Positions 35,344 through 57,886 are shown, numbered from the stretch's first letter. The stretch is DNA of 64,000 nt from Dehalococcoidia bacterium (GCA_965208885.1 CBDBPS010000002.1:1879538-1943537), one strand, 5' to 3'. Notes: generated from the letters alone by a model not told the origin. Program-made: numbers and translations.

Positions 35344-36500
35344 GTGAAGCAGGCTCCGGGGGTAGAACATGCGGTCGAGCGCGAGAAGATCGCGGAACGG
35401 TCGACGCGCGGCAAGGCGGAGCGCGCCCGCAACTGCAAACTCGCGCAGGGCACAGGCGCCGGTCGCTACGGGTACATCTACGAACCCGAAACGGGGCAGC
35501 GCGTGCTCAACCCCCGACAGGCGGCAGTCGTCCGCCGCATCTTCGAGGAGTGGGTCTCAGGTAAGGCTGTGAATCGCATCACCACCGACCTGAACATCGA
35601 CGGCATCCCGACGTTGACTGGCAAGCAGTGGTACCCGGTGACGGTCCGCCGGATCCTGCGCAACGAGACCTACACCGGCCGCACGGTCTACCGGCGCACC
35701 AGGGTGGAGATGGTTCGGCAGTCCGGCGCTCGCCGCAGGAAGCGGTGCGTGGTCGAGCAGGATCCGAGCGAGCACATCGTGATCGAGGGGGCGTCGCCGC
35801 AGATCATTTCCCCCGAGTCGTACGCGCTCGCTCAGTCGCGGTTCGAGGACCCCGAGCGCCGTAGCGCACGGGCGCCGTCGCGGACGTATCCGCTGCGTGG
35901 GCGGCTGCGCTGCCGAGATTGCGGTGCGGGCATGGTCGGTCAGCCGGTGCAGCACGGGCGCTACTTCTACTACCGCTGCAATCGCCTCTACCTGTCCAAC
36001 GCGGAGAAGCGCTGCTCAGGTCGGCAGGTCCGTAAGGAAACCCTTGAGGATGCCGTCCGCAGCACCCTCGAAGACGTCCGGAACTCGCCATCGGCATGGC
36101 CGAGCAGCTGCGCGAGGGGACGGATCACGCCGCCCGGCTGGACTAAGCTCGCGCGCGAGCTCAGCCACATCGACGACAGCCAGGACCGCCTCGTCGACCT
36201 CTGCACGGACGGCGAGGTCACCAAGGACGCCTCCCAGCAGAAGCGGGAACGGCTCACAAGGCGCAGGGCCTCGCTTGAGCGCGAGCAGGCTCAGCTCCGC
36301 TCAGAGTGCGAGCCCGGCCCCGATCCCGAGATGCTGCGGGAGGTGCTGGCGTTCGTCCGCGAGTGGGTGACGAAGGCCGAAGGCGACGACCTCGAGTTGC
36401 TGCTTTCAGGCGCTGAACGTGCGCGTGGACGTCTCTCCAGAGGAGGCCGATGTGCTCGTCGAGGTCCCGATGATGGAGGCGCTCGAGGGGGCAGATTTTG
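35344..36500 (+). pseudogene. Large serine recombinase lacking its N-terminal resolvase catalytic domain. Only the recombinase domain, zinc ribbon and coiled coil remain.
   Basis: YGYIYEPETGQRVLNPRQAAVVRRIFEEWVSGKAVNRITTDLNIDGIPTLTGKQWYPVTVRRILRNETYTGR is the recombinase domain. CRDCGAGM...YYRCNRL is the zinc ribbon. The in-frame TGA sits immediately upstream of the GTG at 35344, so no catalytic Ser domain is present. The 3' end reads through into the small conserved ORF. Confidence 0.7.
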
Positions 36501-36522
36501 TCACCACTGCACGAACATCGGT

Positions 36523-36582
36523 ATGAAGCTCCGGTCGTGCGAAAAAGGGTGCGCCAGGCTGTATCTGGCGCTCTCGTTCTGA
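36523..36582 (+). CDS. Conserved 19-codon small ORF, copy 1 (MKLRSCEKGCARLYLALSF). It is part of an ~88-nt repeated element that starts near 36495.
   Basis: Three copies, at 36523, 44177 and 57827, share a TTTcTCACCAC-N15-ATG leader and 19 codons. Differences between copies are mostly synonymous or conservative. Confidence 0.5.
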   Translation: MKLRSCEKGCARLYLALSF

Positions 36583-36601
36583 TGCCCGGCTGGCCTCTCC
36601 T

Positions 36602-37180
36602 CTATCGCGGTGCAACTCGCTTGCGCTTCCGCGCCGCGTTCTGTCTCGCCACCCCGGTGACGTTCAAACGGTACCGCGCCATGGTCTCACTGACTCCGTG
36701 ACGCTTTGCGATATCGCTTGCGGTCGCCCCTCGACGGATCTCCGCAAGGAGTAGCGGTCGAGGAAGGAGAAGGCACCCAGACAACCAGGCTGCCTCCTCC
36801 TCCTGAACAGGATCACAAGAGAGGAAGGTGACATCGCCGAGCGTCTCGATTCGGCTCAGGTCGTGGTCGAGCAGGATGTGCCCGAGTTCGTGCGCAAGGT
36901 CACTCGCCCGGCGGGGGGGCACAGACAGGGGATTGAACACGATCACTACGCGATCGTCTGAAGGACGGAACGTGCAGGCTGAGAACGCATCGGGCTGTAG
37001 CTCATCGAGGGCAACGAATCGGCTGCGCGGGATCAAGTCCTCTCCCGATCGGACCTCGACACCGAGGAGTTCCGCTAGGGCCTCGGGCGTGACCGGGTCA
37101 GCAGCCGCCAACCCGAGGTCCACCCTCACGCTCTTCGCGATCCTCTCCGCTTCTGACTTGAACCCCCTACGAAGCGCCAT
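36602..37180 (-). CDS. ImmA/IrrE-family Zn metallopeptidase (CapP-like).
   Basis: It carries the HEXXH motif AHELGHILLDH. It lies downstream of, and overlaps, an XRE HTH gene, as ImmR/ImmA and CapH/CapP pairs do. Confidence 0.75.
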   Translation of the reverse strand: MALRRGFKSEAERIAKSVRVDLGLAAADPVTPEALAELLGVEVRSGEDLIPRSRFVALDELQPDAFSACTFRPSDDRVVIVFNPLSVPPRRASDLAHELGHILLDHDLSRIETLGDVTFLSCDPVQEEEAAWLSGCLLLPRPLLLAEIRRGATASDIAKRHGVSETMARYRLNVTGVARQNAARKRKRVAPR

Positions 37181-37673
37181 CCTGTGATTCCCTCAAGAGC
37201 GCCTCGTGCAGGTCGTTCACCAGTTCCCCGAGGGTGTGAGCAGCGTCGGGCCTGAACGTCTTCGCTGCCCTCAGATGCACCGCCGCGACTCTTTCAGGAC
37301 GGGCCAACGCCGCGTAGAGGTCCTTTACGATCCCTGCGATTCGATCAGCCGCATCCGGGGGAAGATTGCGATCCGAGCGAAGGTGCTCCGCGATCACGTC
37401 AGTGGTCACCGCAGCTTTCTCGAGGGGCTCGAAGAACTCGGCGATGTCCGCCCCACACCACTCGACGAGACGCTTGAACTTCGGTAGGTCCGGTACGTGG
37501 CCTTTCTCGACTCGGGCCAGGGTGTTGAACGGAATCCCGACGGTGTCGGCGGCCTCGCGGAGACTCATTCCGCGCCGGTTCCGCTCGGCCGCGACGAGCC
37601 GTCCTAGGTCACCGAGGTCGCGGTTGCCAGCCGCCACACGTCCCCCTGTGCGTAAAGTGGTACGCCGCACCAA
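37167..37673 (-). CDS. XRE-family helix-turn-helix transcriptional regulator (CapH/ImmR-like).
   Basis: The HTH reads RGMSLREAADTVGIPFNTLARVEKG. It is divergent from the Ubl operon. Confidence 0.75.
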   Translation of the reverse strand: MVRRTTLRTGGRVAAGNRDLGDLGRLVAAERNRRGMSLREAADTVGIPFNTLARVEKGHVPDLPKFKRLVEWCGADIAEFFEPLEKAAVTTDVIAEHLRSDRNLPPDAADRIAGIVKDLYAALARPERVAAVHLRAAKTFRPDAAHTLGELVNDLHEALLRESQDGAS

Positions 37674-37713
37674 GCGCAGTTTGACACAACTGGCCGCCGC
37701 GCGCTAGGTTGGT

Positions 37714-37737
37714 TGCTGTACCGATTACGGTACAGCA
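37714..37737. promoter_or_regulatory. Perfect inverted repeat TGCTGTACCG-ATTA-CGGTACAGCA in the divergent intergenic region. Candidate operator for the XRE regulator.
   Basis: It has 10-bp arms and a 4-nt spacer. It sits 30 nt upstream of the Ubl ATG and 40 nt upstream of the XRE start on the other strand. Confidence 0.6.
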
Positions 37738-37767
37738 GTGCGCAAGTGGTTCAGAGGAGGATCCGCG

Positions 37768-38019
37768 ATGCCTGACGACAAGGACAAGATCACGATCATT
37801 GTGAACGGCCGCGAGCGGATCGTCACGTCGGACGAGCTCTCGTTCAGCGAAGTGCTCGCACTCGCCTTCGACCCGGTGCCTTCGGGTCCGAACTGGGAGT
37901 TCACCGTCACCTACCGTAACGGCGCTGGCCGCCCGCCCGATGGTCGGCTCCGCCCCGGCGGTCAGGTCAAGGTCGAGGACGGAACCGTCTTCAATGCCAC
38001 CGCAACTGATAAGTCGTAG
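37768..38019 (+). CDS. Ubiquitin-like beta-grasp protein (multiubiquitin/Bub-type Ubl).
   Basis: The 83-aa protein reads MPDDKDKITIIVNGRERIVTSDELSFSEVLALAF... It has a strong SD (GAGGAGGA), and its stop overlaps the start of the E2/E1 fusion. It does not end in Gly-Gly. Confidence 0.6.
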   Translation: MPDDKDKITIIVNGRERIVTSDELSFSEVLALAFDPVPSGPNWEFTVTYRNGAGRPPDGRLRPGGQVKVEDGTVFNATATDKS

Positions 38020-39166
38020 CCCCGATCTCCAGCGGCTCGCAGACGAGGGCTACGAAATCGAGGTGCGCGGCGGCCACCTCCTGCTGAAGCAAGTTCCGTA
38101 CGTAACCGAGGAGCGTGTCGTCGAGCGCGCCACTCTCATCTCCCCACTCGACCTCGCAGGGGATGTCGCTGCCCGCCCGAGCAGTCATGTCGTGATGTTT
38201 ACTGGGCGGGCACCGTGCAACAGCGACGGGAAGCCTCTAAGCAACATCATTCATTCTGCTGGTCAGTGGGACCTGGGCGGCGGCCTGGTCGCTCGGCACA
38301 AGTTCTCAAGCAAGCCGGCAGCCGGCTACGCGGACTACTACGCGAAGATGTCGACGTACGCGGAAATCCTGTCCGGCTACGCGCAGGCCATCGACCCTGC
38401 AGCGACGGCTCGGACGTTCATTGTGGTCCCCGAGGAGGACACAAACTCGGTGTTCCAGTACGTCGATACAGCGTCGAGCCGGTCCGAAATCGCTGCGATC
38501 ACCGAGAAGCTCACGCTCGCTGCGGTAGCGATCGTTGGGCTCGGGGGCACGGGATCGTACATTCTCGATCTCGTCGCGAAGACGCCGGTCGGCGAGATCC
38601 ACCTCTTCGACGGCGACGTCTTTGGCCAGCACAACGCCTTCCGGGCTCCCGGCGCGCCATCGGTCAACGTACTCAGGGCACGACCCAGGAAGTCCGACTA
38701 CCTCCGCAGCATCTATTCCAACATGCACCGCAACATCATCAGTCACGGCTACCTCGATCAGGGCACAACCGACATTCTGTCATCCATGGACTTCGCGTTC
38801 GTGGCCGTGGATGACGCCGATGCCAGGAGGCTGGCGGTCGAGACGCTGCTGGGCGCCGGCGTACGGTTCGTCGATGTGGGGATGGGTGTTAGCGAGGTTG
38901 ACGGGGCGTTGCTCGGGCAGTTGCGAGTCACGTCTGCGACGCCGGACGACCGCGATCACGTTCTCTCGACGATCCCACTCATGCCCCCACCCGGGGATGA
39001 CGACTATTCGCAGAACATCCAGATCGCGGACCTCAACGCGCTGAACGCCGCCCTCGCCGTCCTTAAGTGGAAGAAGCTCATGGGGTTCTACCTGGATCTG
39101 GGACAGGAGCACTCCAGCTGGTACCAGATTGACGGCAACCACCTGGTCAATGAAGCGCGAGCATGA
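37994..39166 (+). CDS. E2-like (Prok-E2) domain fused to an E1/ThiF adenylyltransferase domain.
   Basis: The N-terminal ~130 aa contain HVVMFTGRAPCNSDGKPL, a candidate catalytic Cys. The ThiF Rossmann region reads VAIVGLGGTGSYILDLVAKTPVGEIHLFDGDVFGQHNAFR. A later conserved Asp-rich region reads FVAVDDADARRL. Confidence 0.7.
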   Translation: MPPQLISRSPDLQRLADEGYEIEVRGGHLLLKQVPYVTEERVVERATLISPLDLAGDVAARPSSHVVMFTGRAPCNSDGKPLSNIIHSAGQWDLGGGLVARHKFSSKPAAGYADYYAKMSTYAEILSGYAQAIDPAATARTFIVVPEEDTNSVFQYVDTASSRSEIAAITEKLTLAAVAIVGLGGTGSYILDLVAKTPVGEIHLFDGDVFGQHNAFRAPGAPSVNVLRARPRKSDYLRSIYSNMHRNIISHGYLDQGTTDILSSMDFAFVAVDDADARRLAVETLLGAGVRFVDVGMGVSEVDGALLGQLRVTSATPDDRDHVLSTIPLMPPPGDDDYSQNIQIADLNALNAALAVLKWKKLMGFYLDLGQEHSSWYQIDGNHLVNEARA

Positions 39167-39528
39167 GCCGTAGAGCGGCCCTCGATCACGAGTTCGTCCA
39201 TCACATCCCAGAGCATCTTGCCGATGGGGTGCTGTACGTCTCTGTCGCCTTCGCGACGGCCCTGCACAGGTGTTGCTGCGGATGCGGCAACGAGGTCGTG
39301 ACCCCGCTCAGCTCACACGATTGGAGCCTGACCTTTGACGGCGAGTCGATCTCTCTCTGCCCGTCGATAGGCAACTCGAGCTTCGAGTGCCAGTCGCACT
39401 ACTACATCCGGCGCAACAAAGTCATCTGGCTGCGCTCCTTCGCGGAGACGGAGTCTGAGCGACGCCTGCCTCTCTGGCGGCGGATCGTGCCGAGGTGGCT
39501 GAAGGTGCCGAGAGCGGGTCGAAGGTGA
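39163..39528 (+). CDS. Small Cys-rich (probable Zn-binding) protein, translationally coupled to the E2/E1 gene.
   Basis: An ATGA overlap joins it to the upstream gene. The Cys cluster reads HRCCCGCGNE...LCPS...ECQSHYY. There is no JAMM HxH motif. Confidence 0.5.
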   Translation: MSRRAALDHEFVHHIPEHLADGVLYVSVAFATALHRCCCGCGNEVVTPLSSHDWSLTFDGESISLCPSIGNSSFECQSHYYIRRNKVIWLRSFAETESERRLPLWRRIVPRWLKVPRAGRR

Positions 39529-39612
39529 CCCGCGCGAAACTCGGAGACACACGTTGAGGGTCGACCAGTGAGGCAACACTAGCCCGGCGGCCCGCAGCTC
39601 AGGGTATGAACC

Positions 39613-40479
39613 ATGGCTGAAAACGCTGAACCGCGACCACCGTTTCCTGCAGACTACGAGTCCTCGCGCCGGCGAGTCATATTGGCGCTCGTCGCGTACC
39701 GCTACAACGACTTCGCAAGGCTGCACCAGATGCTCACTTGGTGTGATCCGCGAGTCCCGCGCAACTGGTCAAGCTGGGCTCCCCTCTTCCTCCCGGCTGT
39801 GCTTCTCGTGATCATCGGGTCAGTACTCGATCACGCAGGTGTGAATGATGCGACGGAACTTGCAGCTGCACTCTTCCTGCTTGTCGGGATCCCCTTCTCG
39901 TACGCGTTCCTCGTTGGGTTTCCACTGGCTTGGCTACTGACGAGTGCGCTCAGCCCCCAAGTTAGAGCGTCCCTCGAGCGCCGAGTGCGTGAGTGCTTGG
40001 TGACGTTCTTCGATCTGTACGGCAAATCGATCCCCACCGGAGACGGAAATCGAGGCTCGCTCACCGCATTGGGGGACGACCTAGGGCCCGTGAATCGGCC
40101 ACGCCCGAGCCTATCGGCCTGGAGTAAAGCCTGGGTGCTCCTCATCGGCACCTCTGCGGTGTTCGTGCGCAGCTGGGTTGGAGACGGGAGCGATGCGGAA
40201 TCGCTTACCGCGTTCGTTGAGGCATCGTCCTCGTCCTGGAGCATTCCTGCGCTCCTGATTGGGCTCTCGCTCATCGTCACCTCGCGCTTGGCCGAACAGG
40301 CAAACCGCGATCTCTATGAGGCTGAACTGCAACCCCCACTGAAGGAGCTGTCCGCAGAGTTCGGGAATGTGGCCGACTTGGCTCGATACCCCGGTTCTCT
40401 TGTGACCGACGTTGTGGGTGTGGCGGGGGTGGCCTTGGTCACAGCGGCGGTCGTGGCACTCGCCGCGAACCTAACGTAG
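39613..40479 (+). CDS. Predicted integral membrane protein (4-5 TM helices), last gene of the Ubl cluster.
   Basis: Hydrophobic segments include WAPLFLPAVLLVIIGSVL, AAALFLLVGIPFSYAFLVGFPLAWLLTSAL, WVLLIGTSAVFV and VGVAGVALVTAAVVALAANL. An SD sits before the ATG. Confidence 0.55.
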   Translation: MAENAEPRPPFPADYESSRRRVILALVAYRYNDFARLHQMLTWCDPRVPRNWSSWAPLFLPAVLLVIIGSVLDHAGVNDATELAAALFLLVGIPFSYAFLVGFPLAWLLTSALSPQVRASLERRVRECLVTFFDLYGKSIPTGDGNRGSLTALGDDLGPVNRPRPSLSAWSKAWVLLIGTSAVFVRSWVGDGSDAESLTAFVEASSSSWSIPALLIGLSLIVTSRLAEQANRDLYEAELQPPLKELSAEFGNVADLARYPGSLVTDVVGVAGVALVTAAVVALAANLT

Positions 40480-40662
40480 CGACGGTACACGCAGCCGTCG
40501 TGGCGAGAGCTCCACGACGGGACGCGCATCACCCCTGGCGCGTAAGGTCCAACATCCTGAGCTGAACCCCGCCCTACGAGCTCGCGCGGGGGCAAGGCAG
40601 TGCGTTCCAGCTGGAGTAGGGTTTGCTAGCATCGACGCTAGAGGAAGCGACGGGGAGGGTGC

Positions 40663-40893
40663 GTGCCTGAGCCACAGAACGTGACAGATGCCGAACCTGC
40701 CGAGGTTGGCCGCACGATGGCGAACCAGCTGCTAGCGTGGCGCCCAACAATGAACTCGGAAGATGTATCGAGAGCCATGATGCGTGCTCTTGAGCACTAT
40801 TCCGCACGAACTGAAGGATCGTCTGAGTCAGGACTCCGAAGGATCATCTACCACTTGCAAGATGCCCTGGAACAGCGGCTGAGGTCCATCTAA
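40663..40893 (+). CDS. Hypothetical small protein (76 aa).
   Basis: ORF only. No recognisable motif. Confidence 0.25.
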   Translation: MPEPQNVTDAEPAEVGRTMANQLLAWRPTMNSEDVSRAMMRALEHYSARTEGSSESGLRRIIYHLQDALEQRLRSI

Positions 40894-40902
40894 GGGGCAG
40901 GC

Positions 40903-42111
40903 CTACGGCGCCCCTGACGCTTGCGTGTCGGCGGCCGACGGGAGCGCTGGGATCGCTCGGGACTCTGGGAATTCGATAGCGTAGTTCGGAGTGAACGGCT
41001 GGGTTGTGACTCGGGCCGACTCGATGCGATCAAGCCGGTACGCTCGGTGCTCACGACTCTCCGCCCGTAGCGCGTGGAGAAGGATGTCCCCCGCCCGTGA
41101 CTGCCTCAACGAGTACGGCTCAATCAGCCGATTCCCACCCTGGTACCCAAGATCAACGAGCAAGCGGTTCACAGCTGCAAACCGGACGGGCTCAATGCGG
41201 TTCCCCAACCCCGTCGTCCAGAAGGTCGGTGGCGGTGTCCAGAGATCGTCCTCCGCCGCCAGCGGTAAGGGCTCAGGGGACTCTTCACCGTTGAGCCAGG
41301 CGAAGAGCCGCGGCAGCTCGGACCAGAAGTGGTTGAAGTCCGGGAGGGCTCTCAACTGGTGGTCGAGCATGTTCGCCCACTCGGTTTCGAGCTCGTCGAA
41401 CATCGGGGAAGTCCGGATGCTCTCGACTGAAGGGATGGCGATCCCTTTCGACGAGCACTTCTCGGCCAGGATCTCGCGGACGAGTGCGGCGTATGGCAAG
41501 AAGTCCGGCCGACGGAAGAGGTTGATGATGTCGTAGAGGTCCCGCGGCCTCGACCGCTCGCCCATTGCGCGCAGCTTCTCGGCGAAGACTTCTTCGAAGC
41601 GGTAGCAGCGAACTTGCGCCGGCTCGGGCAGTGCATCGGGATAGTCGTGGCTGATGGACCTCAGGACCGACGGCCGCACCACGACTTCGTCTGTGGTCAG
41701 GTCGAGCTTGATGCTCGCTGGACCGGGCGCGTTGCGCGGCCCGCGATAGTAGAGTCGCCCCTCTGCTGATGCTCCGGACGAACGGCTCCTGCAGATGGGT
41801 GGTCGCACCGCGAAGTCGATGCCGGACTCCTGACTGACACGGTCGAGTACACGCTCGACCGCCGCGAGCACCTCTTCCGGCTCTATCGGCCCCTCTTCAA
41901 GAACCGTGAAGTCGAGGTCCTCGGAGAACCGGTACGTCTCGATGTAGCACTTCTTCAGGCACGTCCCGCCCTTGAAAACCCATGTCCGGCCGAGTAGCGG
42001 GTCGGCCCCGATACCCCAGAGCACCCACCCGAGGGCGTAGTCCTTCTCGACTACGTCCTCGCGGAGACCCCAGGCGCGCACGCGGTCGTCGATATCGGCT
42101 CGCCCGATCAC
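40903..42111 (-). CDS. abiEii: AbiEii/AbiGii-family nucleotidyltransferase toxin (type IV TA / abortive infection) with a ~100-aa C-terminal extension.
   Basis: VFKGGTCLKKCYIETYRFSEDLDF matches the GGTAL...RFSEDLD nucleotidyltransferase signature. The GTG start overlaps the stop of the upstream AbiEi gene (GTGA). Confidence 0.75.
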   Translation of the reverse strand: MIGRADIDDRVRAWGLREDVVEKDYALGWVLWGIGADPLLGRTWVFKGGTCLKKCYIETYRFSEDLDFTVLEEGPIEPEEVLAAVERVLDRVSQESGIDFAVRPPICRSRSSGASAEGRLYYRGPRNAPGPASIKLDLTTDEVVVRPSVLRSISHDYPDALPEPAQVRCYRFEEVFAEKLRAMGERSRPRDLYDIINLFRRPDFLPYAALVREILAEKCSSKGIAIPSVESIRTSPMFDELETEWANMLDHQLRALPDFNHFWSELPRLFAWLNGEESPEPLPLAAEDDLWTPPPTFWTTGLGNRIEPVRFAAVNRLLVDLGYQGGNRLIEPYSLRQSRAGDILLHALRAESREHRAYRLDRIESARVTTQPFTPNYAIEFPESRAIPALPSAADTQASGAP

Positions 42112-42977: not shown

Positions 42978-43246
42978 TTTGCCCTCGCAATGTAGGTCAG
43001 TATATCAGAGGACGTGACTTTTCTTCCATAGAGTGAACTGTGGACTTTCAGTATACCGAGGCCCTCCTCCAGAACAGCGACCCGAGATCCCGACGCTCAC
43101 CGCGAACGAGCTCGAATCCGGTAAGGATGCCGCCCACGGCGCTCTTCCGGCTCACCCCAGGAACTCCGGGCCAAGACATCGGCGAGGCTGTGCTGGAATG
43201 TCGGTACTTATTGACATCGTCCGACGTATCAAAGCACTATCGGGCC

Positions 43247-43849: not shown

Positions 43850-44176
43850 GTCCCGAGCTTCTGTTGGTCCCTATCGACGCCCGGGCGGGACGCGCCTGAC
43901 CGGGTTCCGAGACGAAGGCGTCTCCTTCGGGGCTCGCGAACTGCCGCTTCAGCGCCGTGAGAGCCTCGATGAGTTCCGGGGCCTCGCACCGCGCGGCGTC
44001 TTCGACAGCGAGCCGGCATGCGCTCGCGAAGAACACGATCCAAAGGCTGACACCGGCGAGGGCCCGCTCGGAATCGGGCGCGCCTTCGTAGGGCGTCTCT
44101 GAGATGCCCTTACCGAGGGCGCTGACACCCTCCGAGACCGCCAACCGCGATTTCTCACCACGGGAGGAAACAAGGT

Positions 44177-44236
44177 ATGAAGCTGCGGTCGTGCGAAAGG
44201 GGATGCGCCCGGATCTACGTCGTGCTGTCCTTCTGA
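44177..44236 (+). CDS. Conserved 19-codon small ORF, copy 2 (MKLRSCERGCARIYVVLSF), with a GGGAGGA SD.
   Basis: See copy 1. The element spans ~44149-44236. Confidence 0.5.
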   Translation: MKLRSCERGCARIYVVLSF

Positions 44237-50203: not shown

Positions 50204-53200
50204 CGGGACTGCGCATCGATGTAGGGGCGGTCCTAGCTGACCTGAAGGACTTCCAGAGGCGAACCGCCCGTTGGGCGTTCCAGCGGATGTTCGATGAGCA
50301 GGATCCTGCAATCCGATTCCTGGTCGCTGACGAGGTCGGGCTGGGGAAAACGCATGTCGCCCGAGGAATAGTTGCTCTGGCTATCGACCACCTTCGGCGG
50401 ACGGGCGACACACGATATGACATTGTCTACGTCTGCTCCAACGCGGCGATCGCGCGCCAGAACCTTCGCAAACTTGTGCCAGAAGGAATCGAGCCGCTCG
50501 AGGACATCGAACGACTCACCATGCTGCCTCTCGCAAAACTGAATAGCGGTGACGACCAGCATATGGGTGTAAACCTTCTCGCGATCACACCAGGGACGTC
50601 GCTGCAGTTCGGTCGTAGCACGGGCCGGTTCCGCGAGCGCTGCATAGCGTACGCGTTCTTGCGGGCCTGTTGGAGTGCGGAAGTGATGAACGCACCGGCT
50701 CGTCGGATCTTCTGGCACGGCGTCACGGCCAACGACCCCGACGAGCGGCTGCGCTCGGAGGAGCGACGGTACCGGTCGGAAATAAGGGAGTCACTCGGAG
50801 AGTTCGAAGCAATGCTGGAAGAGGTCGAACAGTCGCGCCGCGCCGACGGACGACCGGCGCTACGTGAACTCTTTGAGGGTCTGGCCCACGGATTGGCGTG
50901 GAAGCGCACGTTCCCAGACGACTTGTACGAAGACCGCAGAGAATTGATTGGTGAGGTTCGCCGCATCATGGCGAGAGTTGGCATCGCCAAGCTCCAACCG
51001 GATCTCGTGATATTGGACGAGTTCCAACGGTACAAGGACGTGCTCCGAATGGCTCCCAAGAACTTCGCTGTGGAGTTGGGGCAACGCTTGCTGAACCACA
51101 CGGACCCGCAGACTGGGCGCGCGACGCGAACGCTGCTTCTGTCCGCTACCCCATACCGCCTGTACACGACTGGCGATCGGGCAGGTGACGACCACTACGA
51201 AGACTTCTTTGATACTTGCTCGTTCCTTCTCAGGGATCCCGCGAGGGTTAACTGGCTGCGGGATCAGTTTCGTGCCCTCCGCCTGGCACTCACGTCCAAG
51301 GAGTCACTCTCAAACGCCGAGGGGGTCTGCCGCGCCATCGGCACCGAGCTGAGCAGCGTAATGGCACGAACGGAGCGGCTGGCGGCTACGCCAGACCGTG
51401 ACGGGATGCTTCACGAACCGGACACTCCAGTGGAGGTGAAACCGCTTGACCTGCGCGCCTATCGTCGCCTCGGGAATCTTGCGGAGGCGGTCGACCACCA
51501 CGAACCGACCGAATACTGGAAGTCCGCGCCGTATCTCGTCAACTTCATGGAGCGGTACAAGCTCAAGGAGGCCGTGGTGCAGTCCGCAGGCGACGGCCGA
51601 TTCAAGGACGGAGAAGGGCTTAGTCCAGGTCCTGGACTGCTGAACTGGGACGATGTCGAGGCCTACGAGGACGTTGATCCCCAGAACGGGCGACTTCGCT
51701 GGCTGCTCAGCGACTTGGATCGCCACCGTGCATTCGAATTGCTCTGGATACCTCCCTCGATGCGGTACTACGACACTGGATCGGTGTACGAAACCCCGGA
51801 AGCAGCCAGCTTTACGAAGCGGCTGATCTTCTCCGGGTGGAGAGTCGTCCCGAAGGTGGTATCCTCGCTCGTCAGCTTCGAGGCCGAACGCCGCGCCTTC
51901 GCCGGACGCAATCACGACTACACGGCAGACTATCGGCGGCGTGGTGGCCAACGTCTCACCTTCCGTACGAGCGAGCGCACTGCCGGCCAACTCCGACACG
52001 GAGAATCGGCCAGAGTCCGCCGAGCAGCCGGAATGACCACGTTTCTCTTGATCTGGCCGAGTCCGAGTCTTGCGGAGCTGGGAGACCCCCGACCGCTAGT
52101 GTCCGGCGCATACCGCCCTGTGTCTGAGATGCTCGCCGACGTGGCGGGTCGAATCTCGGACGCCATCGAACCGCTGGTTCAGAGCGCACCAACTGATGGC
52201 GCCGTCGACCAGAGGTGGTACTGGGCCGCGCCCCTGCACCTCGACCGAGAGGCTTACCTGTCGGTAACGGATCGCTTGCTTTCCCAGGGTGGCCTCATAC
52301 AGTCGGGAGGGGACGAATCCGATCGTGGACTCCGCGCCCACGTTGCCGAGGCAAATTCCATGCTATCGCGCGGTGCCCGGGCTCTCGGTCGCCCACCCGA
52401 TGACCTCAGCGAGGTTCTCGCTGAGTTGGCAATCGGAGGGCCGGCGCAATGCGCGCTGCGGGCGATCAGTTCAGTCACTCAGTTGCCGATCGCTGACGAA
52501 TCCACCGTGTTGAACGCCGCGCGGGTCGGTGCCGCGTTCAGGAGATTCTTCAACGCCCCGGAAGTCACGGGGCTCATAGTAGGTGGGCGTCCAGGGGAAC
52601 CGGACGTCGACGAAGGCGCAGGCCGCTACTGGCGCGATGTCATTCGACACTCGATCGGCGGCAATCTGCAGGCCGTTCTCGATGAACACACCCATGTGGT
52701 CCGTGACTGGCTCGGATATCTTCGTTTGGGCGACGATGACCGGCGCGCGCAGGCGGCCAACGACATCGCTCTGACCGTCGCGGACGCCTTGGACCTCCGC
52801 ACTTCATCGTTTCGCGTGGACATCCCCCGTAGTGGGCAAGGCGAACGCAACATGGATCTGGAAGAACGTCGGATGCGGACCCGTTTCGCCGTTTCATTTG
52901 GCAATCAAACACTCGACGAGGGCGGCGAGGCCCGAATCGAATCTGTGTACAGAGCGTTCAACTCGCCGTTCTGGCCCTTCGTCCTCGCCTCCACTTCTAT
53001 CGGACAGGAGGGGTTGGACTTCCACCTCTGGTGTCACGCCGTCGTCCACTGGAACCTTCCTACCAACCCAGTCGACCTGGAGCAGCGCGAGGGGCGCGTT
53101 CACAGGTACAAGGGTCACGCCGTCCGCCGCAACATCGCCGCGACCTTGGCGCCGGACCTGCTTGAAGGTGCGCTGGCTGGTGTCGCCGATCCTTGGAGTC

Positions 53201-53487
53201 AGCTATTCGCCATGGCAGTGCCCACTAGGCCAGAGGCCGCCGGCGAAATGGTGCCTTACTGGGTGTTCCCCAGGGGTCCGGCGCGGATCGAACGCCACGT
53301 GCCGGTCATGCCCTTCAGCCGAGATGCAGCGACTCTGCCACGGTTGCGCAAGTCACTCGCTGCATATCGCCTTGCGTTCGGCCAACCCCGGCAGGCCGAG
53401 TTGATTGAGTTTCTCGGGGCCGAGCGCTCCGACAGTGACCTGCTGCAACTGGCCTCACGGCTCCGCATTGAACTCTCACCCCCCTGA
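50200..53487 (+). CDS. SNF2-like superfamily-2 helicase/ATPase (1095 aa).
   Basis: Motif I reads FLVADEVGLGKTHVA, compared with SNF2 ILADEMGLGKT. Motif II reads LVILDEFQRYK. Motifs V-VI read SIGQEGLDFHLWCHAVVHWNLPTNPVDLEQREGRVHRYKGH. Confidence 0.75.
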   Translation: MTGLRIDVGAVLADLKDFQRRTARWAFQRMFDEQDPAIRFLVADEVGLGKTHVARGIVALAIDHLRRTGDTRYDIVYVCSNAAIARQNLRKLVPEGIEPLEDIERLTMLPLAKLNSGDDQHMGVNLLAITPGTSLQFGRSTGRFRERCIAYAFLRACWSAEVMNAPARRIFWHGVTANDPDERLRSEERRYRSEIRESLGEFEAMLEEVEQSRRADGRPALRELFEGLAHGLAWKRTFPDDLYEDRRELIGEVRRIMARVGIAKLQPDLVILDEFQRYKDVLRMAPKNFAVELGQRLLNHTDPQTGRATRTLLLSATPYRLYTTGDRAGDDHYEDFFDTCSFLLRDPARVNWLRDQFRALRLALTSKESLSNAEGVCRAIGTELSSVMARTERLAATPDRDGMLHEPDTPVEVKPLDLRAYRRLGNLAEAVDHHEPTEYWKSAPYLVNFMERYKLKEAVVQSAGDGRFKDGEGLSPGPGLLNWDDVEAYEDVDPQNGRLRWLLSDLDRHRAFELLWIPPSMRYYDTGSVYETPEAASFTKRLIFSGWRVVPKVVSSLVSFEAERRAFAGRNHDYTADYRRRGGQRLTFRTSERTAGQLRHGESARVRRAAGMTTFLLIWPSPSLAELGDPRPLVSGAYRPVSEMLADVAGRISDAIEPLVQSAPTDGAVDQRWYWAAPLHLDREAYLSVTDRLLSQGGLIQSGGDESDRGLRAHVAEANSMLSRGARALGRPPDDLSEVLAELAIGGPAQCALRAISSVTQLPIADESTVLNAARVGAAFRRFFNAPEVTGLIVGGRPGEPDVDEGAGRYWRDVIRHSIGGNLQAVLDEHTHVVRDWLGYLRLGDDDRRAQAANDIALTVADALDLRTSSFRVDIPRSGQGERNMDLEERRMRTRFAVSFGNQTLDEGGEARIESVYRAFNSPFWPFVLASTSIGQEGLDFHLWCHAVVHWNLPTNPVDLEQREGRVHRYKGHAVRRNIAATLAPDLLEGALAGVADPWSQLFAMAVPTRPEAAGEMVPYWVFPRGPARIERHVPVMPFSRDAATLPRLRKSLAAYRLAFGQPRQAELIEFLGAERSDSDLLQLASRLRIELSPP

Positions 53488-54048
53488 TGCACGCGACGCT
53501 GCGCGCCGGGGTGATGGAGTAGGTGGGCTCACGGAATGAAGTGACCGGGGCGCCGCACGGCGGGGTGTGCCCCCGCTTGGCCAACGTCCACCTGCACCGC
53601 TGGACCGGGCGTGGGAGGCGGAAGGAAGATTGCGAAAGGAGAAGGCCGCCAATGTCCGAGAACCACATGCAGCAGACGGAGGGCGGTAGCAGAGGAGTCG
53701 CGCTCCTCTCGCCGCTCGCGGAGCTGGCACGACGGCCCGTTCGCTCCTCCAGGGGATACTCGTCCCCAATAACAGCGCCGCCGATTGGCCAGGTAGCAGT
53801 TCGGAAGAGCCTTGACCGAGGTAAGAGGCCGACGATGCAGCAGGATAACGCAACGACGCGGAGCATTGAGAGCAGGGAACGGGTCTCTGGGCGACCCCTC
53901 CAGGTGAGTTCCGCCGGTTGGCACGCATCCGGCGGGTGTTGAGTTACTCGAGTCTGGCTATGTAGCCGAAAGGTCATCAATGCGGCGGACTTGGGCAACA
54001 CCGGCTTCTGATGCGCTGCAACGGGAAGTTGGCGGCAACCCCTCGCCC

Positions 54049-54360
54049 CTACCCCAGCGGCCGTGTCAGGGCGCTCGCTGCAACGGCGAGCTTGACCGCG
54101 CGCGCAGTGCCGACCAGTTCACGAGGCCGCGCTCCGAGGCGATCATTGCGCGAGAAGCCGAACTCGTCGAGGCAGAGCAGGCCGAGCCGGCCGTTGCAGG
54201 CGACCACGCGCGAGAGCATGCGCTCCTCGGCGGCCTCGGCGAGCTCGTTCACGAGCTGTGCCGCCGTCGTGTAGCGCACGCGCAGCCCGCGCTGGCAGGC
54301 GGCCATGCCGAGGCCGATCAGCAGATGCGACTTACCGGTGCCGCTGTCGCCGAGCAGCAC
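54049..54360 (-). pseudogene. IS21-family IstB helper ATPase fragment.
   Basis: Walker A reads LLGDSGTGKSHLLIGL and Walker B reads LLCLDEFGF. Both termini are missing. No istA was found. Confidence 0.6.
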
Positions 54361-54571
54361 GACGGGCTCGCCCTGTTCGACCCACTCGGCGGCGCCGCGT
54401 CGCGGTCGTCGAGCTCGGCCTGGAGCAGCTCGGCGAGGTAGGCGAGATGGCTGAGGCGGTCGCGCAGCGCGGCGGGGCGAGGGAGCCGGCCTGTTCGCGC
54501 ACGGTCGGGAGGCGCAGCGCCCGGCTGGTCGCCTCGACCGTCAGTGCCGCCGCCTGCTCGGTGACGGGCTG

Positions 54572-54716
54572 TCCTCGCGGTACATCGTGACTCGATTGTC
54601 TTCAGTCAGACTAGACACTATTCCCTCGCGATGTAGCTCAGTACATCAGAGGACGTGGTTCTTCTCACGCAGGTTGAACTATGGACTCTCAGTATGCCGG
54701 CGGCCCTCCTTCAGAA
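54572..54716. repeat. ~145-bp duplicate (~85% identity) of the AbiEi/AbiEi-like bidirectional promoter and 5'-ends region at 42935-43080.
   Basis: gtcctcgcggtacatcgtgactcgattgtcttc.gt.agact.gacact.t.ccctcgc.atgtag.tcagta.atcagaggacgtg...atggact.tcagtat.ccg is shared. No coding partners follow in the second copy. Confidence 0.75.
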
Positions 54717-54959
54717 CGGCCCACCGCCAGATCGCATCGTTGCATCGCAGTGCCGACAGGTCGGCACCGCGAGATGGCTTCGCCGTCCGTCCGGAGCGTG
54801 GGTAAGATATGCGCGCGATGAACGCTCGACCATATCCTGAGCTGAGACTGTGACGCGCCACGCCCAGTCTTCGCTCAGCATCCTCATCGCCATCGCCGAC
54901 TGCTCCCGGGGTCGCCAGCTTCGTCCACGGCGCAGCCCCACCGGCTAAGCGATGGTCCA

Positions 54960-56120
54960 GTGAGTCTGCCGAAACGCCCCGCAACGCTCGCCGAACTCCG
55001 GGAGAGTCTCACCGCCGGGGTTCTGCAGGAAGGTCGGCATCTCGAGTTCAAGCGCGAACTCCCGTCGAACAAGGACATCGCGCGGCAGTGCGCGGCACTG
55101 GCGGTCCAGGGCGGCGTTCTCGTGTTCGGTGTAGATGAGTCAGAAGCCGGACTTGTCGTCGCCCCGATCGAGTATGCGGGCGTCCGTGAGAAAGTCGGGC
55201 AAATAGCCCGGGACAGGTCGGTGCCACCCATCGAGTTGGACTCGTCGGTGCTGCATTCCGACGAGGCGGGCAGGGGCGTCGTTTGGATCGAGATTCCGCC
55301 ATCCCCGCACATGCTCCACCAGGTCGACGGGACGTACTACACGCGCGACGACGCGCGGACAAGGCCAATGTCAGACGCCGAGGTCGCTGATCGAATGGAG
55401 CTGCGCAAGGGGCGTCCGCGCTTGCTCGAGCAGGCACTCGAGCAAGCGCTGCGGAGACCGGAACCGGCAGCTGCGTCGCTGCATGCAAGGACCTGTATTG
55501 TCGCGCGGCCGGTCGGTGCCGCCTCCGACTTGCTCTTCGCAAAGACCAGGACGGCGGATGAGTGGGATGACTTCGCCTTCGAGCTCATGGTCCCGACAGG
55601 CCCGATCGTGATGCCCGCGCCGGTACGGGCCTGGGGCTTCATCAGCCATCAAGCCACGCCAGAGGGACCGAGTTGGGGCTCGCAGGCGATCATGTCGTAT
55701 CGCGACATCGCGTTCGAGAAGAACGGCGCACTCGCGCACCTCTCGTACAGCCGGGGGTTCGATCGCCGGAATGCGGATACGGTTCAGCCGTGGCTCGCGC
55801 TACAGGCTTGCATCGAAGTCATCGGGATCATCGGCGCCATCCAAGAGCGCACCAAGGAGGCCATGCCTTGGGACATCGCGATGTCGATCCGCGACGTGCG
55901 GGGTCACCTGGGGACATCGAGGCCGTGGTCTGGTCGCGGCCCGGTTCAGCAGCGGTTCCGGCCGACATTCCCGCGCGACGACTACACTGAGTATGCGCTT
56001 GGCGTGACTGGGCGACGGATAGAAGCGGACGGCGTTGCGCTTGTCGAGGAGCTGGCCGGTCAGTTCGTCTTGGAGTGTGGGCTGGACTTCGACACCGAAT
56101 ACCCTGGGCGAAGGACATAA
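54960..56120 (+). CDS. AlbA_2/Schlafen-like domain protein (putative DNA-binding/regulatory ATP-binding protein).
   Basis: GRHLEFKRELPSNKD...GGVLVFGV resembles the AlbA_2 (divergent AAA / Schlafen) signature E..E..LEFK...GG.l..GV. Confidence 0.4.
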   Translation: MSLPKRPATLAELRESLTAGVLQEGRHLEFKRELPSNKDIARQCAALAVQGGVLVFGVDESEAGLVVAPIEYAGVREKVGQIARDRSVPPIELDSSVLHSDEAGRGVVWIEIPPSPHMLHQVDGTYYTRDDARTRPMSDAEVADRMELRKGRPRLLEQALEQALRRPEPAAASLHARTCIVARPVGAASDLLFAKTRTADEWDDFAFELMVPTGPIVMPAPVRAWGFISHQATPEGPSWGSQAIMSYRDIAFEKNGALAHLSYSRGFDRRNADTVQPWLALQACIEVIGIIGAIQERTKEAMPWDIAMSIRDVRGHLGTSRPWSGRGPVQQRFRPTFPRDDYTEYALGVTGRRIEADGVALVEELAGQFVLECGLDFDTEYPGRRT

Positions 56121-56492
56121 GCAGGCTCAGACCAGAGGCCCACCCCGGACACACAAGATTCCTGCGGGACGGCTCGGAGGCAGGAGTGGCTCTCCTACGC
56201 ACCTCCGTAGTACCACGCGACCGGACCCCGGCCCGCGAGTTCGCCGCGCACATACAACGCCGGTATGCGCTCGGAGCGCCAGGCCCGGCCAGCATTAGAG
56301 AGGCCTCGGCACGAGGGGTTGAGGCTACGGGTAGCATTGGTCGTTCTGGATGCGGTAGTCCTCGGGTCGCCTCGTCTCCTGCGCCCCGAGCTCTCGAGGC
56401 GCGATCCCCGCGCGACCCGCGGGCGACCTAAGCTCCGATAGTACGGCTCCATATAGGAGGTTAGGTGGTAACATTCAGCAAGAGAGGTTGAT

Positions 56493-57764
56493 ATGGCTGG
56501 CTACGAGCGCCGACAGTGGCAGGGGAGCCCGACGGGGCAAACCTACCGCGACCGGCGGCCCTGCAACTACGACACATACCTGCCGGATCCCCTCGCCGGC
56601 CGCGACTTCGCGCTCTCGGGCGAGGTCACTGCGGATGTCGCCGCGGCCGAGGCCGCGCTCGTGCGCCTCGACGAATCGGCCACCGCGCTCGCCGGCGCCC
56701 GCTCCCTCGCCCGACTGATCCTGCGAGCCGAATCGGTCGCGTCGTCTCGCATCGAAGGATTGGTGGTCGGGGGTCGGCGGCTGCTCCGTGCCGATGCGGC
56801 GCGCCGTCTCGGCAATGACCCGCGGGATCGTACGGCCGAGGAGGTGCTGGCCAACATCGACGCAATGTCGATGGGCGTCGAGACCGTGGGGCCGGGCGAC
56901 CCGATTGAGCCGGCTGTCATGCTGGAGATGCACCGCCTGCTGCTCGCCGGCACGCCGCTTGAGGAGCACGGCGGGCGACTGCGAGACCAGCAGAACTGGA
57001 TCGGAGGCTCCGGGTACAACCCGTGCGCCGCGGCGTTCGTACCGCCACCCCCCGAGATCGTGGAGGACCTGTTCGATGACCTCTGCGCCTTCGCGAGCGC
57101 CGATGCGTGGCCACCGCTGGTCCAGGCAGCGATCACACACGCGCAGTTCGAGACCATTCACCCGTTTGTGGACGGCAACGGGCGTGTGGGCCGTGCCCTG
57201 ATCCATCTGGTGCTGCGGCGCCGCGGCCTCGGGCTCCGCGTCCAGCCGCCCATCTCGCTGGTGCTGGCGACATGGTCTTCGGCCTACGTGGCCGGCCTGA
57301 CCGCGACGCGCTACGTCGGGCCGTCCGATAGCGCCGAGGCGCGCGACGGCTTCGACCGCTGGGTGGAGCTCGCCGCCGAAGCCTGCCTGCGTGCCGCGGG
57401 AGACGCTGCGCGCTTCGAGGAGCGGGTGCGGGCGCTCCAGGCGAAATGGATCGAGCGAGCCGGACCCGCGCGGCGTGACTCGGCGCTCCGCCTGCTCATC
57501 GACACGCTCCCGGAGGCACCCGTCCTGACCACGTCCGTCGCCGCGGATCTCATCGGCCGCTCGCTGCGGGCGACGACCCAGGCGATGGACCAGCTGGTGC
57601 GCGCGGGGATCCTGGTCCAGATCACGGTTGGCCGCCGCAACCGCGCGTTCGAGGCGCCGGAGCTCATCGAGGCGTTCACGGCATTCGAGCGAGGCCTCGC
57701 GAGCCCGGAGGGCAACACGGCCATCGCGGATCCCTCACGCCCGGTGCCCCAGCGGCCGAACTGA
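56493..57764 (+). CDS. Fic/Doc-family protein (AMPylase-type, with a C-terminal winged helix).
   Basis: The canonical Fic motif HPFVDGNGRVGRAL is present. The ATG is preceded by AGAGAGG. Confidence 0.85.
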   Translation: MAGYERRQWQGSPTGQTYRDRRPCNYDTYLPDPLAGRDFALSGEVTADVAAAEAALVRLDESATALAGARSLARLILRAESVASSRIEGLVVGGRRLLRADAARRLGNDPRDRTAEEVLANIDAMSMGVETVGPGDPIEPAVMLEMHRLLLAGTPLEEHGGRLRDQQNWIGGSGYNPCAAAFVPPPPEIVEDLFDDLCAFASADAWPPLVQAAITHAQFETIHPFVDGNGRVGRALIHLVLRRRGLGLRVQPPISLVLATWSSAYVAGLTATRYVGPSDSAEARDGFDRWVELAAEACLRAAGDAARFEERVRALQAKWIERAGPARRDSALRLLIDTLPEAPVLTTSVAADLIGRSLRATTQAMDQLVRAGILVQITVGRRNRAFEAPELIEAFTAFERGLASPEGNTAIADPSRPVPQRPN

Positions 57765-57826
57765 GCACGATTGCCTCGCCCCCAGAGCACCGAGGGCCAG
57801 TTTCTCACCACTCGAACAAGAGGGCT

Positions 57827-57886
57827 ATGAAGCTGCGGTCGTGCGAAAAGGGGTGCGCCAGATTGTATCTGGTGCTCTCGTTCTGA
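57827..57886 (+). CDS. Conserved 19-codon small ORF, copy 3 (MKLRSCEKGCARLYLVLSF).
   Basis: See copy 1. The element spans ~57799-57886 and lies 60 nt after the Fic stop. Confidence 0.5.
   Translation: MKLRSCEKGCARLYLVLSF

What the first reader, a model, noticed from the sequence alone, without database searches (positions are those of the whole stretch)
36495..57886. Three copies of a conserved 19-codon ORF (MKLRSCEKGCARLYLALSF) with a conserved leader, diverging mainly at synonymous sites, at cassette junctions
Copies at 36523-36582, 44177-44236 and 57827-57886 share TTTcTCACCAC, a 15-nt purine-rich spacer containing an SD (GGGAGGA or AGAGGG), and then ATG plus 19 codons. The peptides are MKLRSCEKGCARLYLALSF, MKLRSCERGCARIYVVLSF and MKLRSCEKGCARLYLVLSF. 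Nucleotide differences fall largely on wobble positions (ctc/ctg, aaa/aag/agg, ggg/gga, tat/tac, tcg/tcc). That is the signature of purifying selection on a protein, not of a neutral repeat. Similarity stops exactly at the TGA. Each copy sits just 3' of a plus-strand gene: the serine recombinase remnant, the orphan AbiEi-like gene and the Fic gene. They lie at the boundaries of successive cassettes. There are two readings. It may be a genuine tiny Cys-containing peptide gene, such as a toxin-like or regulatory peptide. Alternatively it may be diverged surrogate ends carried by tandemly integrated elements that target this small gene (att-site accretion).
Basis: seen in the sequence. Interest (0 to 1): 0.7.

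Follow-up and report, generated by a model that had tools for sequence, protein, structure and literature searches.

The report
Island junction scars, not a peptide gene
The three "19-codon genes" are most likely about 90-base junction scars left by mobile islands whose serine recombinases target the end of the essential gene dnaN, so the repeat is real but it is an attachment-site relic bounding defence-gene cassettes, not a new peptide.

Summary
The three copies exist exactly as described and are far beyond chance. I do not think they are peptide genes.

- **Leader.** Read on the minus strand, the "leader" plus the ATG encodes (I/M)PMFVQW-stop. This is the invariant C-terminus of the DNA polymerase III beta clamp (DnaN) in this Dehalococcoidia clade.
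- **Relatives.** In related genomes a large serine recombinase (LSR) gene converges on an intact dnaN. In 7 of 8 sampled loci the two overlap by 26-29 nt, so the same bases encode the LSR tail (..TIEQTSA*) and the DnaN tail.
- **Crossover.** Every kind of sequence that follows this shared segment diverges right after ..CATCGGyAT(G).
- **The 60-nt "ORF".** It is a conserved element-side arm containing a palindrome plus T-run. No DnaN in a search of 5.8 billion proteins ends like its antisense reading.
- **Synteny.** Breakpoints against a 97-99% identical relative fall at the copies.
- **Copy 1.** It abuts an LSR pseudogene.
- **Wobble bias.** It is p=0.017 in the window but p=0.12 on unbiased columns. 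A minus-strand frame shares the same third positions.

The closest precedent is the tandem ssrA islands of Dehalococcoides. The dnaN target and the integrase/target overlap appear unreported in the library I searched. Interest is moderate.

The parts
35344..36526 (+). Large serine recombinase pseudogene. It lacks about the first 126 residues (the catalytic Resolvase domain) and has a frameshift near 36404-36411. Its true C-terminus is ..ADFVTTARTSV*, ending in the ATGA of copy 1.
   Evidence: Pfam finds Recombinase and Zn_ribbon_recom but no Resolvase domain. tblastn with intact homologues splits into two frames.
36501..36524 (-). Copy 1, dnaN-tail segment. The tail is intact.
   Evidence: Junction table. 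120 of 120 clade DnaN proteins end ..MPMF[VI]QW.
36523..36582 (+). I read it as the conserved element-side arm that starts at the inferred crossover (its ATG).
36542..36571 (-). Palindrome GCGCCAG..CTGGCGC followed on the minus strand by CCCTTTTTC. This is terminator-like for the converging minus-strand cargo genes.
   Evidence: The terminator scan gives 1 hit against 0.3 expected. Hairpin energies in 15 copies range from -3.5 to -17.8 kcal/mol. There are no compensatory changes.
36583..44148 (.). Cassette 1. It holds an M78 peptidase/XRE pair, an E1-like ThiF-DUF6791 gene with DUF6527, an AbiEii/AbiEi pair, an orphan AbiEi and a Fic C-terminal remnant. No recombinase gene is left.
   Evidence: Pfam, PADLOC, tblastn. 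The block 36590-44239 is 98-99% identical to relative CAXXDN010000002.1.
44155..44178 (-). Copy 2, decayed dnaN tail (IPCFLPW*).
44177..44236 (+). Copy 2 of the ORF-type arm. It is the most diverged copy: the hairpin is lost and the minus-strand frame contains a stop.
44237..57798 (.). Cassette 2. It begins with a stretch I read as a ParE C-terminal remnant (recognised from memory, not confirmed by any family search), then holds PDC-M36A, ZacABC, a Schlafen/AlbA_2 protein and Fic. The stretch 44240-56316 is replaced by a different 4.3 kb in the close relative.
57805..57828 (-). Copy 3, decayed dnaN tail (IALLFEW*).
57827..57886 (+). Copy 3 of the ORF-type arm.
57887..64000 (.). Start of cassette 3, open-ended at the window edge. 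It holds a 1404-aa minus-strand protein of unknown function and a radical-SAM protein. The content differs from the relative immediately after the copy.

Best explanation
Each copy is a composite junction of about 90 bp, an att-type scar, from a family of integrative islands driven by large serine recombinases (LSRs) that target the 3' end of dnaN in Dehalococcoidia.

Shown:
- The left part, from about -26 to the ATG, carries on the minus strand the last 7-8 codons and the stop of dnaN.
- In intact elements the same bases form the last 8 codons and the stop of the LSR gene on the plus strand.
- Every kind of sequence that follows this segment (dnaN body, the 'ORF-type' arm, and two other arm types) diverges right after ..CATCGGyAT(G).
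- The copies sit at synteny breakpoints between near-identical genomes.
- Copy 1 adjoins an LSR pseudogene.

Inferred:
- The 60-nt 'ORF' is the terminal arm of the next element (P'-like). It would be kept by recombinase binding in its first 25 nt or so, and by a palindrome plus T-run that may terminate minus-strand cargo transcripts before they run antisense into the LSR gene.
- Successive integrations (accretion), followed by loss of the LSR genes, left LSR-less cassettes of defence genes bounded by these junctions.
- The apparent ORF is a by-product: its ATG comes from the LSR stop overlap (ATGA) and the DnaN Met/Ile codon.
For: - **LSR next to dnaN in relatives.** Intact LSR genes end in the ATGA directly upstream of ORF-type copies in L002 and L003. 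Four LSR homologues at 45-87% identity each converge on an intact dnaN with 26-29 nt of overlap. Four contigs found through DnaN itself all carry an LSR at the dnaN 3' end, three overlapping and one 38 nt away.
- **The tail is DnaN's.** All 120 clade DnaN proteins end ..HV[VI]MPMF[VI]QW. The junction table gives HVV|MPMFVQW* at dnaN and RSF|(I/M)PMFVQW* at the copies.
- **The tail follows the dnaN frame.** The two tail DNA variants are synonymous in the dnaN frame but read TIEQ versus TTAR in the LSR frame.
- **Common divergence point.** All arm types diverge after the AT(G).
- **Breakpoints at the copies.** Comparison with the close relative places the synteny breaks at the copies.
- **Decay of neighbours.** The arm has no indels in the 15 full-length copies (14 distinct), while the adjacent LSR gene and what I read as ParE remnants carry frameshifts.
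- **Terminator-like feature.** It is found on the minus strand.
- **Precedent.** Tandem LSR islands with direct repeats and extra conserved flanks are documented in Dehalococcoides (PMC3146451).
Against: - No dnaN lies in the window or in L001-L014.
- In one 3.55-Mb contig an ORF-type copy lies 820 kb from dnaN. The window array is therefore not shown to abut dnaN, and it may sit at a secondary or rearranged site.
- No left end (attL) of a single element was found within 8-10 kb of the dnaN-adjacent LSRs, so the P' assignment of the arm is untested.
- The arm is conserved over 60 nt, which is longer than a typical LSR half-site.
- The hairpin shows no compensatory changes.
- Canonical LSRs do not recombine attP-like junctions with attP, so accretion at internal junctions needs a more permissive, Ccr-like enzyme.
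- No excision product has been observed.
Confidence: 0.78

Rival explanations
1. The 19-codon ORF is a real, translated micro-protein. It could for instance be coupled through the ATGA overlap to the recombinase gene and produced when the recombinase end is joined to this arm.
For: The ORF is intact, with identical length and stop, in all 15 full-length copies (14 distinct sequences), with no indels. The ATGA overlap with the LSR stop is the classic coupling arrangement. Third-position bias within the window is p=0.017. Most replacements are conservative (K/R, L/I, L/V).
Against: - On columns not constrained by my search patterns the position counts are 5/6/10, p=0.12.
- Radical changes occur: R4L, E7G and K8N, and codon 16 takes A/V/P/E/T.
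- A minus-strand frame with the same wobble positions is about as well conserved.
- The SD-like spacer exists in only two decayed leader types.
- ATG and ATGA are explained by the LSR stop, the DnaN codon and the crossover.
- Two of the three window copies have no recombinase gene left to couple to.
Confidence: 0.07
2. The whole 88 nt is a displaced or surrogate 3' end of a dnaN gene (the last 27 or so codons), so the ORF is simply the antisense of real coding sequence.
For: The minus-strand frame is open from QNES.. through ..IPMFVQW* in 14 of 15 copies and is continuous with the genuine DnaN tail. Its wobble positions coincide with the variable positions. Gene callers have called it as 34-66 aa ORFs.
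Against: A search of 5.8 billion proteins with this peptide returned only six short ORFs and no DnaN. All 120 clade DnaNs read ..HVV|MPMFVQW and none contains HPFSHD or SHDRSF. By hand count, the DNA after the ATG matches real dnaN at about chance level, 11 of 36 positions, when the sequences printed are lined up.
Confidence: 0.08
3. The conserved 60 nt is kept only as an RNA element, a bidirectional intrinsic terminator or small RNA, and is unrelated to recombination.
For: There is a GC-rich palindrome with a T-run on the minus strand and a U-rich tail on the plus strand. Minus-strand genes converge on most copies.
Against: There are no compensatory substitutions, and substitutions break pairs (88.8% paired, 0 double changes). 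Fold z-scores range from -3.2 to +1.2. There is no Rfam match even at E<=1. A terminator does not explain conservation of nt 1-24 or the coincidence with synteny breakpoints.
Confidence: 0.07

Closest known systems
Dehalococcoides mccartyi ssrA-specific genomic islands (ssrA-GIs; DsiB serine recombinase; McMurdie et al. 2011, PMC3146451)
   Same: Both occur in the class Dehalococcoidia. Both have a large serine recombinase gene placed next to the island boundary, and both target the 3' end of a single-copy essential gene. Both form tandem islands separated by direct repeats of the target end, with additional conserved sequence beside the repeat that does not match the target. Both include recombinase-less islands interpreted as cis-mobilizable elements formed by accretion.
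   Different: Here the target is dnaN, a protein-coding gene, not the tmRNA gene. The recombinase gene overlaps the regenerated target end antisense by 26-29 nt. No DsiA-like second recombinase or six-gene integration module was seen next to the LSRs. The cargo is anti-phage defence genes rather than reductive dehalogenases.
Staphylococcal cassette chromosome (SCC/SCCmec; CcrAB/CcrC at the 3' end of rlmH/orfX)
   Same: Large serine recombinases integrate cassettes at the 3' end of a conserved housekeeping gene while preserving its coding sequence. Composite tandem cassettes are bounded by direct repeats. The L003 LSR gives weak sub-threshold NCBIfam matches to CcrB, CcrC and CcrA.
   Different: The NCBIfam scores are far below the Ccr cut-offs (91 bits against 900), so this LSR is not a Ccr equivalog. 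There is a single recombinase, a different target, and a different phylum.
Integron cassette arrays (IntI, attI, attC)
   Same: An array of mostly recombinase-less cassettes, each bounded by a conserved imperfectly palindromic site of about 60-90 bp, with a recombinase gene at the head of the array (L003 and window copy 1).
   Different: The recombinase is a serine recombinase, not a tyrosine recombinase. The cassettes are multi-gene, with their own orientation and probably their own promoters. The junctions contain a fragment of a chromosomal target gene. No single-stranded folded attC-type structure is supported.

Membership tests
Site-specific integrative islands driven by a large serine recombinase, with tandem accretion (ssrA-GI / SCC type) | A large serine recombinase (Resolvase + Recombinase + Zn-ribbon domains) encoded next to the island boundary | tested here: met
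   Intact LSRs of 516-533 aa directly abut ORF-type copies in L002 and L003. In the window only a truncated, frameshifted pseudogene remains, at copy 1.
Site-specific integrative islands driven by a large serine recombinase, with tandem accretion (ssrA-GI / SCC type) | Integration into a defined chromosomal target whose end is regenerated by the element | tested here: met
   Eight of 8 sampled dnaN loci have an LSR at the dnaN 3' end, with an intact ..MPMFVQW* tail. This is not shown for the window itself, which holds no dnaN.
Site-specific integrative islands driven by a large serine recombinase, with tandem accretion (ssrA-GI / SCC type) | Direct repeats of the target end at island boundaries | tested here: met
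   All three window copies and all other copies carry the dnaN tail segment, intact or decayed, in the same orientation.
Site-specific integrative islands driven by a large serine recombinase, with tandem accretion (ssrA-GI / SCC type) | Repeats coincide with gain or loss of DNA between closely related strains | tested here: met
   Blocks shared between the window and CAXXDN010000002.1 end at the copies. There is different cargo after copies 2 and 3, and an extra 1.35 kb after copy A.
Site-specific integrative islands driven by a large serine recombinase, with tandem accretion (ssrA-GI / SCC type) | Excision to a circle and re-integration catalysed by the recombinase | not testable with these tools
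   This needs junction PCR, long reads or in vitro recombination. No viral or plasmid copy of the site was found.
Small protein-coding gene (micro-ORF) | Excess of synonymous over non-synonymous change, seen as three-base periodicity of variation | tested here: inconclusive
   The window alone gives 9 of 14 variable sites at position 3, p=0.017. Unbiased columns over 17 copies give 5/6/10, p=0.12. The signal is shared with a minus-strand frame.
Small protein-coding gene (micro-ORF) | A conserved translation initiation signal | tested here: not met
   GGAGG-like sequence occurs only in the two decayed leader types. The other leader types, including those behind intact LSR genes, read ..GAACAAACATCGGT before the ATG.
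Small protein-coding gene (micro-ORF) | Evidence of translation | not testable with these tools
   No expression data are available.
Intrinsic (rho-independent) terminator | A GC-rich hairpin followed by a U-tract | tested here: met
   On the minus strand the stem GCGCCAG/CTGGCGC is followed by CCCTTTTTC. Ten of 15 copies have a run of 5 T.
Intrinsic (rho-independent) terminator | The stem is maintained by compensatory change | tested here: not met
   There are 0 pairs with changes on both sides, and the score is no better than shuffles.
tRNA/tmRNA gene fragment or known RNA family | A match to ARAGORN or Rfam models | tested here: not met
   There are no tRNA or tmRNA genes in the window. There is no Rfam hit at gathering score or at E<=1.

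The most novel reading that the evidence does not exclude
The locus is a serine-recombinase analogue of an integron. A resident large serine recombinase at the head of the array would capture, shuffle and lose recombinase-less defence cassettes at composite sites of about 90 bp (dnaN-tail segment plus a conserved 60-nt arm). This would make the dnaN-linked hotspot a cassette platform rather than a graveyard of decayed islands.

Observations consistent with this:
- An intact LSR sits at the head of the array in the close relative.
- That relative has an extra 1.35-kb cassette directly next to the LSR.
- The cargo after the junctions differs between genomes that are 97-99% identical.
- The arm is much better conserved than the decaying genes around it.
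Probability: 0.15. Interest if true: 0.75.

Novelty: new member of a known kind. Interest (0 to 1): 0.4.

Why it matters
- **A caution for micro-ORF hunting.** An apparently selected micro-ORF can be produced by overlapping constraints on the other strand and by a recombination site.
- **A likely new integration target.** The 3' end of dnaN appears to be an almost constantly occupied integration site for large serine recombinases in uncultured Dehalococcoidia. The integrase C-terminus is dictated antisense by the clamp's C-terminus.
- **Defence islands.** The junctions delimit cassettes carrying defence systems (AbiE, ZacABC, PDC-M36A, an E1-like module, Fic). They therefore give exact boundaries for mapping defence islands in these genomes.
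- **A possible engineering tool.** If the enzymes are active, the site offers a new LSR/att pair with a defined natural target in an essential gene.

Tried and rejected
- **tRNA, tmRNA or known RNA.** None was found.
- **Plasmid or phage origin of the 92-nt element.** No BLAST hit in either collection, and no match in viral contigs with two patterns.
- **Extra diverged copies.** An nhmmer profile found none in the window. It found one truncated copy in L019 and one in L021.
- **A read-through longer gene on the plus strand.** Rejected, because L002 and L003 have in-frame stops just upstream of the ATG. The 412-aa ORF at copy 1 is a frameshifted pseudogene fused by chance.
- **Dyad symmetry around the ATG and the CCKGKCGYRC motif.** Seen by eye, not consistent between leader types, and not pursued.
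- **RNA structure covariation.** Negative.
- **Locating the window genome's own dnaN.** Exact-protein look-ups for window genes were not on record. The DnaN search did not list a protein from the 2,012,002-nt contig. The distance from the array to dnaN therefore remains unknown.
- **The left end (attL) of dnaN-adjacent elements.** Not found within the fetched flanks.
- **ParE assignment.** The remnant next to several arms gave no family hit, so the assignment rests on recognising the C-terminal motif from memory. The adjacent ParD-like gene hits TIGR02606 below its cut-off.
Full report
**Observation.** A 33-nt probe with up to three mismatches hits only these sites, with none expected from shuffles. 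The TTT[C/G]TCACCAC motif sits 15 nt upstream of each ATG. Within the window, 9 of 14 variable sites are third codon positions (p=0.017). ARAGORN and Rfam find nothing. The element has no relative in plasmid, phage or viral-contig collections.

**Context in the window.**
- Copy 1 follows a large serine recombinase (LSR) pseudogene. Pfam finds the Recombinase and Zn-ribbon domains but no Resolvase domain.
- Alignment to intact homologues starts at about residue 127 and switches frame near 36404-36411.
- A public gene call (P0102, 412 aa) is exactly the fusion of this pseudogene with the small ORF.
- Between the copies lie defence-type genes. These are an M78/XRE pair, an E1-like ThiF-DUF6791 gene with DUF6527, AbiEii/AbiEi, an orphan AbiEi, PDC-M36A, ZacABC, a Schlafen/AlbA_2 protein and Fic.

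**Relatives.**
- A codon-degenerate pattern found nine further copies, all in Dehalococcoidia MAGs, with several genomes holding two or three.
- An end-anchored pattern, with the interior left free, found five metagenome loci representing two distinct sequences.
- L003, L009 and L006 are contiguous. They come from a genome 97-99% identical to the window in shared blocks.
- The shared blocks end at the copies. Window 36590-44239 is shared. After copy 2 the window has 12 kb where the relative has 4.3 kb. Fic plus its leader is shared again. After copy 3 the genomes differ again.
- The relative also has an extra 1.35 kb right after its first copy, closed by an indel-ridden degenerate copy. It has an intact 533-aa LSR where the window has the pseudogene.
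- The copies therefore mark recombination boundaries.

**The decisive result.**
- LSR homologues nearly all end ..[FY]xT[IT][EA][QR]T[SW][AV]*.
- I fetched the neighbourhoods of four of them, at 45-87% identity to the L002 LSR. Each converges on an intact dnaN and overlaps it by 26-29 nt (Pfam on DnaN).
- Starting instead from DnaN, all four contigs carrying one DnaN sequence have an LSR at the dnaN 3' end.
- All 120 DnaN proteins retrieved for this clade end ..HV[VI]MPMF[VI]QW.
TCACCA is the reverse complement of TGG TGA.
- The tail is intact at copy 1 and decayed at copy 2 (IPCFLPW*) and copy 3 (IALLFEW*).
- The two common DNA versions of the tail (ccattgaacaaacatcgg and ccactgcacgaacatcgg) are synonymous for DnaN but change the LSR tail from TIEQ to TTAR. 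The segment therefore follows the dnaN frame.

**Where the crossover is.** After ..CATCGGyAT(G) four kinds of sequence follow:
- the dnaN body (seven loci);
- the 'ORF-type' arm (all the copies);
- a second arm type (L016 and L007);
- a third arm type (L019, with a weak 75% match downstream of the L012 copy).

All four diverge from one another immediately after that point. The 60-nt ORF belongs with whatever lies to its right. In line with this, the ORF sequences of window copies 2 and 3 differ from those of the relative at 9-12 positions, while the leaders to their left are nearly identical.

**What the 60-nt arm is.**
- It is not a dnaN fragment. Its antisense reading..QNESARYNLAHPFSHDRSF, is joined in frame to the tail. 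However, a search of 5.8 billion proteins returned only six short ORFs of 34-66 aa and no DnaN. No clade DnaN contains that sequence.
- It has no indels in the 15 full-length copies (14 distinct), with 93% mean column identity in the 13-sequence alignment. By contrast the adjacent LSR gene, what I take to be ParE remnants, and the tails all decay. Something constrains it or keeps renewing it.
- My inference is that its first 25 nt or so are the element-side recombinase half-site. It shares GGWCGT with the dnaN side at the same distance from the ATG, which is weak evidence.
- Nt 25-53 form a palindrome that, on the minus strand, is followed by CCCTTTTTC. This is a terminator-like feature facing the minus-strand cargo genes that converge on most copies.
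- There is no covariation to support the hairpin, so this part remains a lead.

**Why it is not a peptide gene.**
- Using only columns my search patterns did not fix, variable sites fall 5/6/10 on codon positions 1/2/3 (p=0.12).
- The minus-strand frame that continues into the DnaN tail has the same third positions and is about as well conserved.
- Radical replacements occur: R4L and E7G in L012, K8N in L019, and A/V/P/E/T at codon 16.
- The purine-rich 'SD' is simply the decayed tail codons of two leader types and is absent from the other leader types.
- The ATG and the ATGA overlap are accounted for by the LSR stop codon, the DnaN Met/Ile codon and the crossover.
- I keep a 7% chance that the ORF is nonetheless translated, for example when an LSR end is joined to this arm.

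**Limits.**
- No dnaN lies in the window or in L001-L014.
- In one 3.55-Mb contig an ORF-type copy with similar cargo (Fic, ThiF, M78-HTH) is 820 kb from dnaN. I cannot say whether the window array abuts dnaN or sits at a secondary or rearranged site.
- I did not find the far end of any dnaN-adjacent element within 8-10 kb, so the P' assignment is inference.
- Look-ups for the window genome's own genes were not on record.

**Comparison with known systems.**
- The closest precedent is the tandem ssrA-specific islands of Dehalococcoides mccartyi. There a CcrB-like serine recombinase sits next to the boundary. The 20-bp direct repeats of the target's 3' end are accompanied by extra conserved flanking sequence that does not match the target. 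Recombinase-less islands are explained by accretion (PMC3146451).
- SCC elements at rlmH are the other analogue. The L003 LSR hits the Ccr and XisF models only far below their cut-offs.
- New here are the target (dnaN), the antisense overlap of the integrase and target C-termini, and the defence cargo. I found no paper describing dnaN as a natural integration target in the held library.

**Verdict.** The repeat is real, but its interpretation as a peptide gene is not supported. It is a new member of a known kind of mobile-element junction, of moderate interest.

Noticed in passing
window 29067-35021 (+), with related segments at 4779-6497, 7086-8795 (-) and 25965-27575: A 1984-aa protein with cadherin-like, Calx-beta and arylsulfotransferase-like domains has several paralogous C-terminal regions (61-65% identity) elsewhere in the window. 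Similar giant proteins lie just upstream of the LSR in L018, L019 and L005. They may be island cargo or a conserved neighbour of the hotspot.
   Followed up: partly
window 47157-53487 (+): A complete three-gene ZacA/ZacB/ZacC candidate defence system (PADLOC E-values 1e-103, 1e-141 and 0). Upstream, at 44464-45885 (-), is a PDC-M36A candidate defence protein.
   Followed up: partly
window 37940-39528 (+) and 36602-37673 (-): An E1-like ThiF protein with an N-terminal DUF6791, followed by a DUF6527 protein. It is divergent from an M78-peptidase/XRE pair. The same gene types (ThiF, M78-HTH, Fic) recur next to an ORF-type copy in L021, a different genome.
   Followed up: no
window 40903-43985: An AbiEii/AbiEi pair on the minus strand (40903-42977) is followed by an orphan plus-strand AbiEi (43040-43849) and a 35-aa Fic C-terminal remnant on the minus strand (43881-43985). 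Fic remnants also lie near copies in L001, L004 and L005.
   Followed up: partly
L007 5106-5300 and L012 756-1021: Junctions are stacked about 125-130 nt apart. In L007 a leader with the second arm type is followed by a leader remnant with the ORF-type arm. In L012 the ORF-type arm is followed by a weak (75% identical) match to the third arm type. This looks like repeated use of one site with almost all cargo deleted.
   Followed up: partly
L015, L017, L020, L022, L024, L025 (dnaN neighbourhoods): In these Dehalococcoidia contigs dnaN is not next to dnaA. Its upstream neighbours are a solute-binding protein, an aminotransferase, a HAD hydrolase and haem-synthesis genes (ALAD, HEM4, porphobilinogen deaminase). 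Several contigs are dense in IS110, IS21 and DDE transposases.
   Followed up: no
window 35344-36582: The public protein P0102 (412 aa) is a gene-caller artefact. It fuses the frameshifted LSR pseudogene, through an Arg/Gly-rich out-of-frame stretch, to the 19-codon ORF.
   Followed up: yes
L001 6006-6233 (-), L010 3110-3385 (-), and remnants after window copy 2 (44237-44300): A ParD-like antitoxin gene (TIGR02606, E=6e-10, below the curated cut-off) lies immediately beside many ORF-type arms. Next to it are decayed remnants I read as ParE (assignment from memory, no family hit). This suggests one widespread element family whose end was arm-ParE-ParD.
   Followed up: partly
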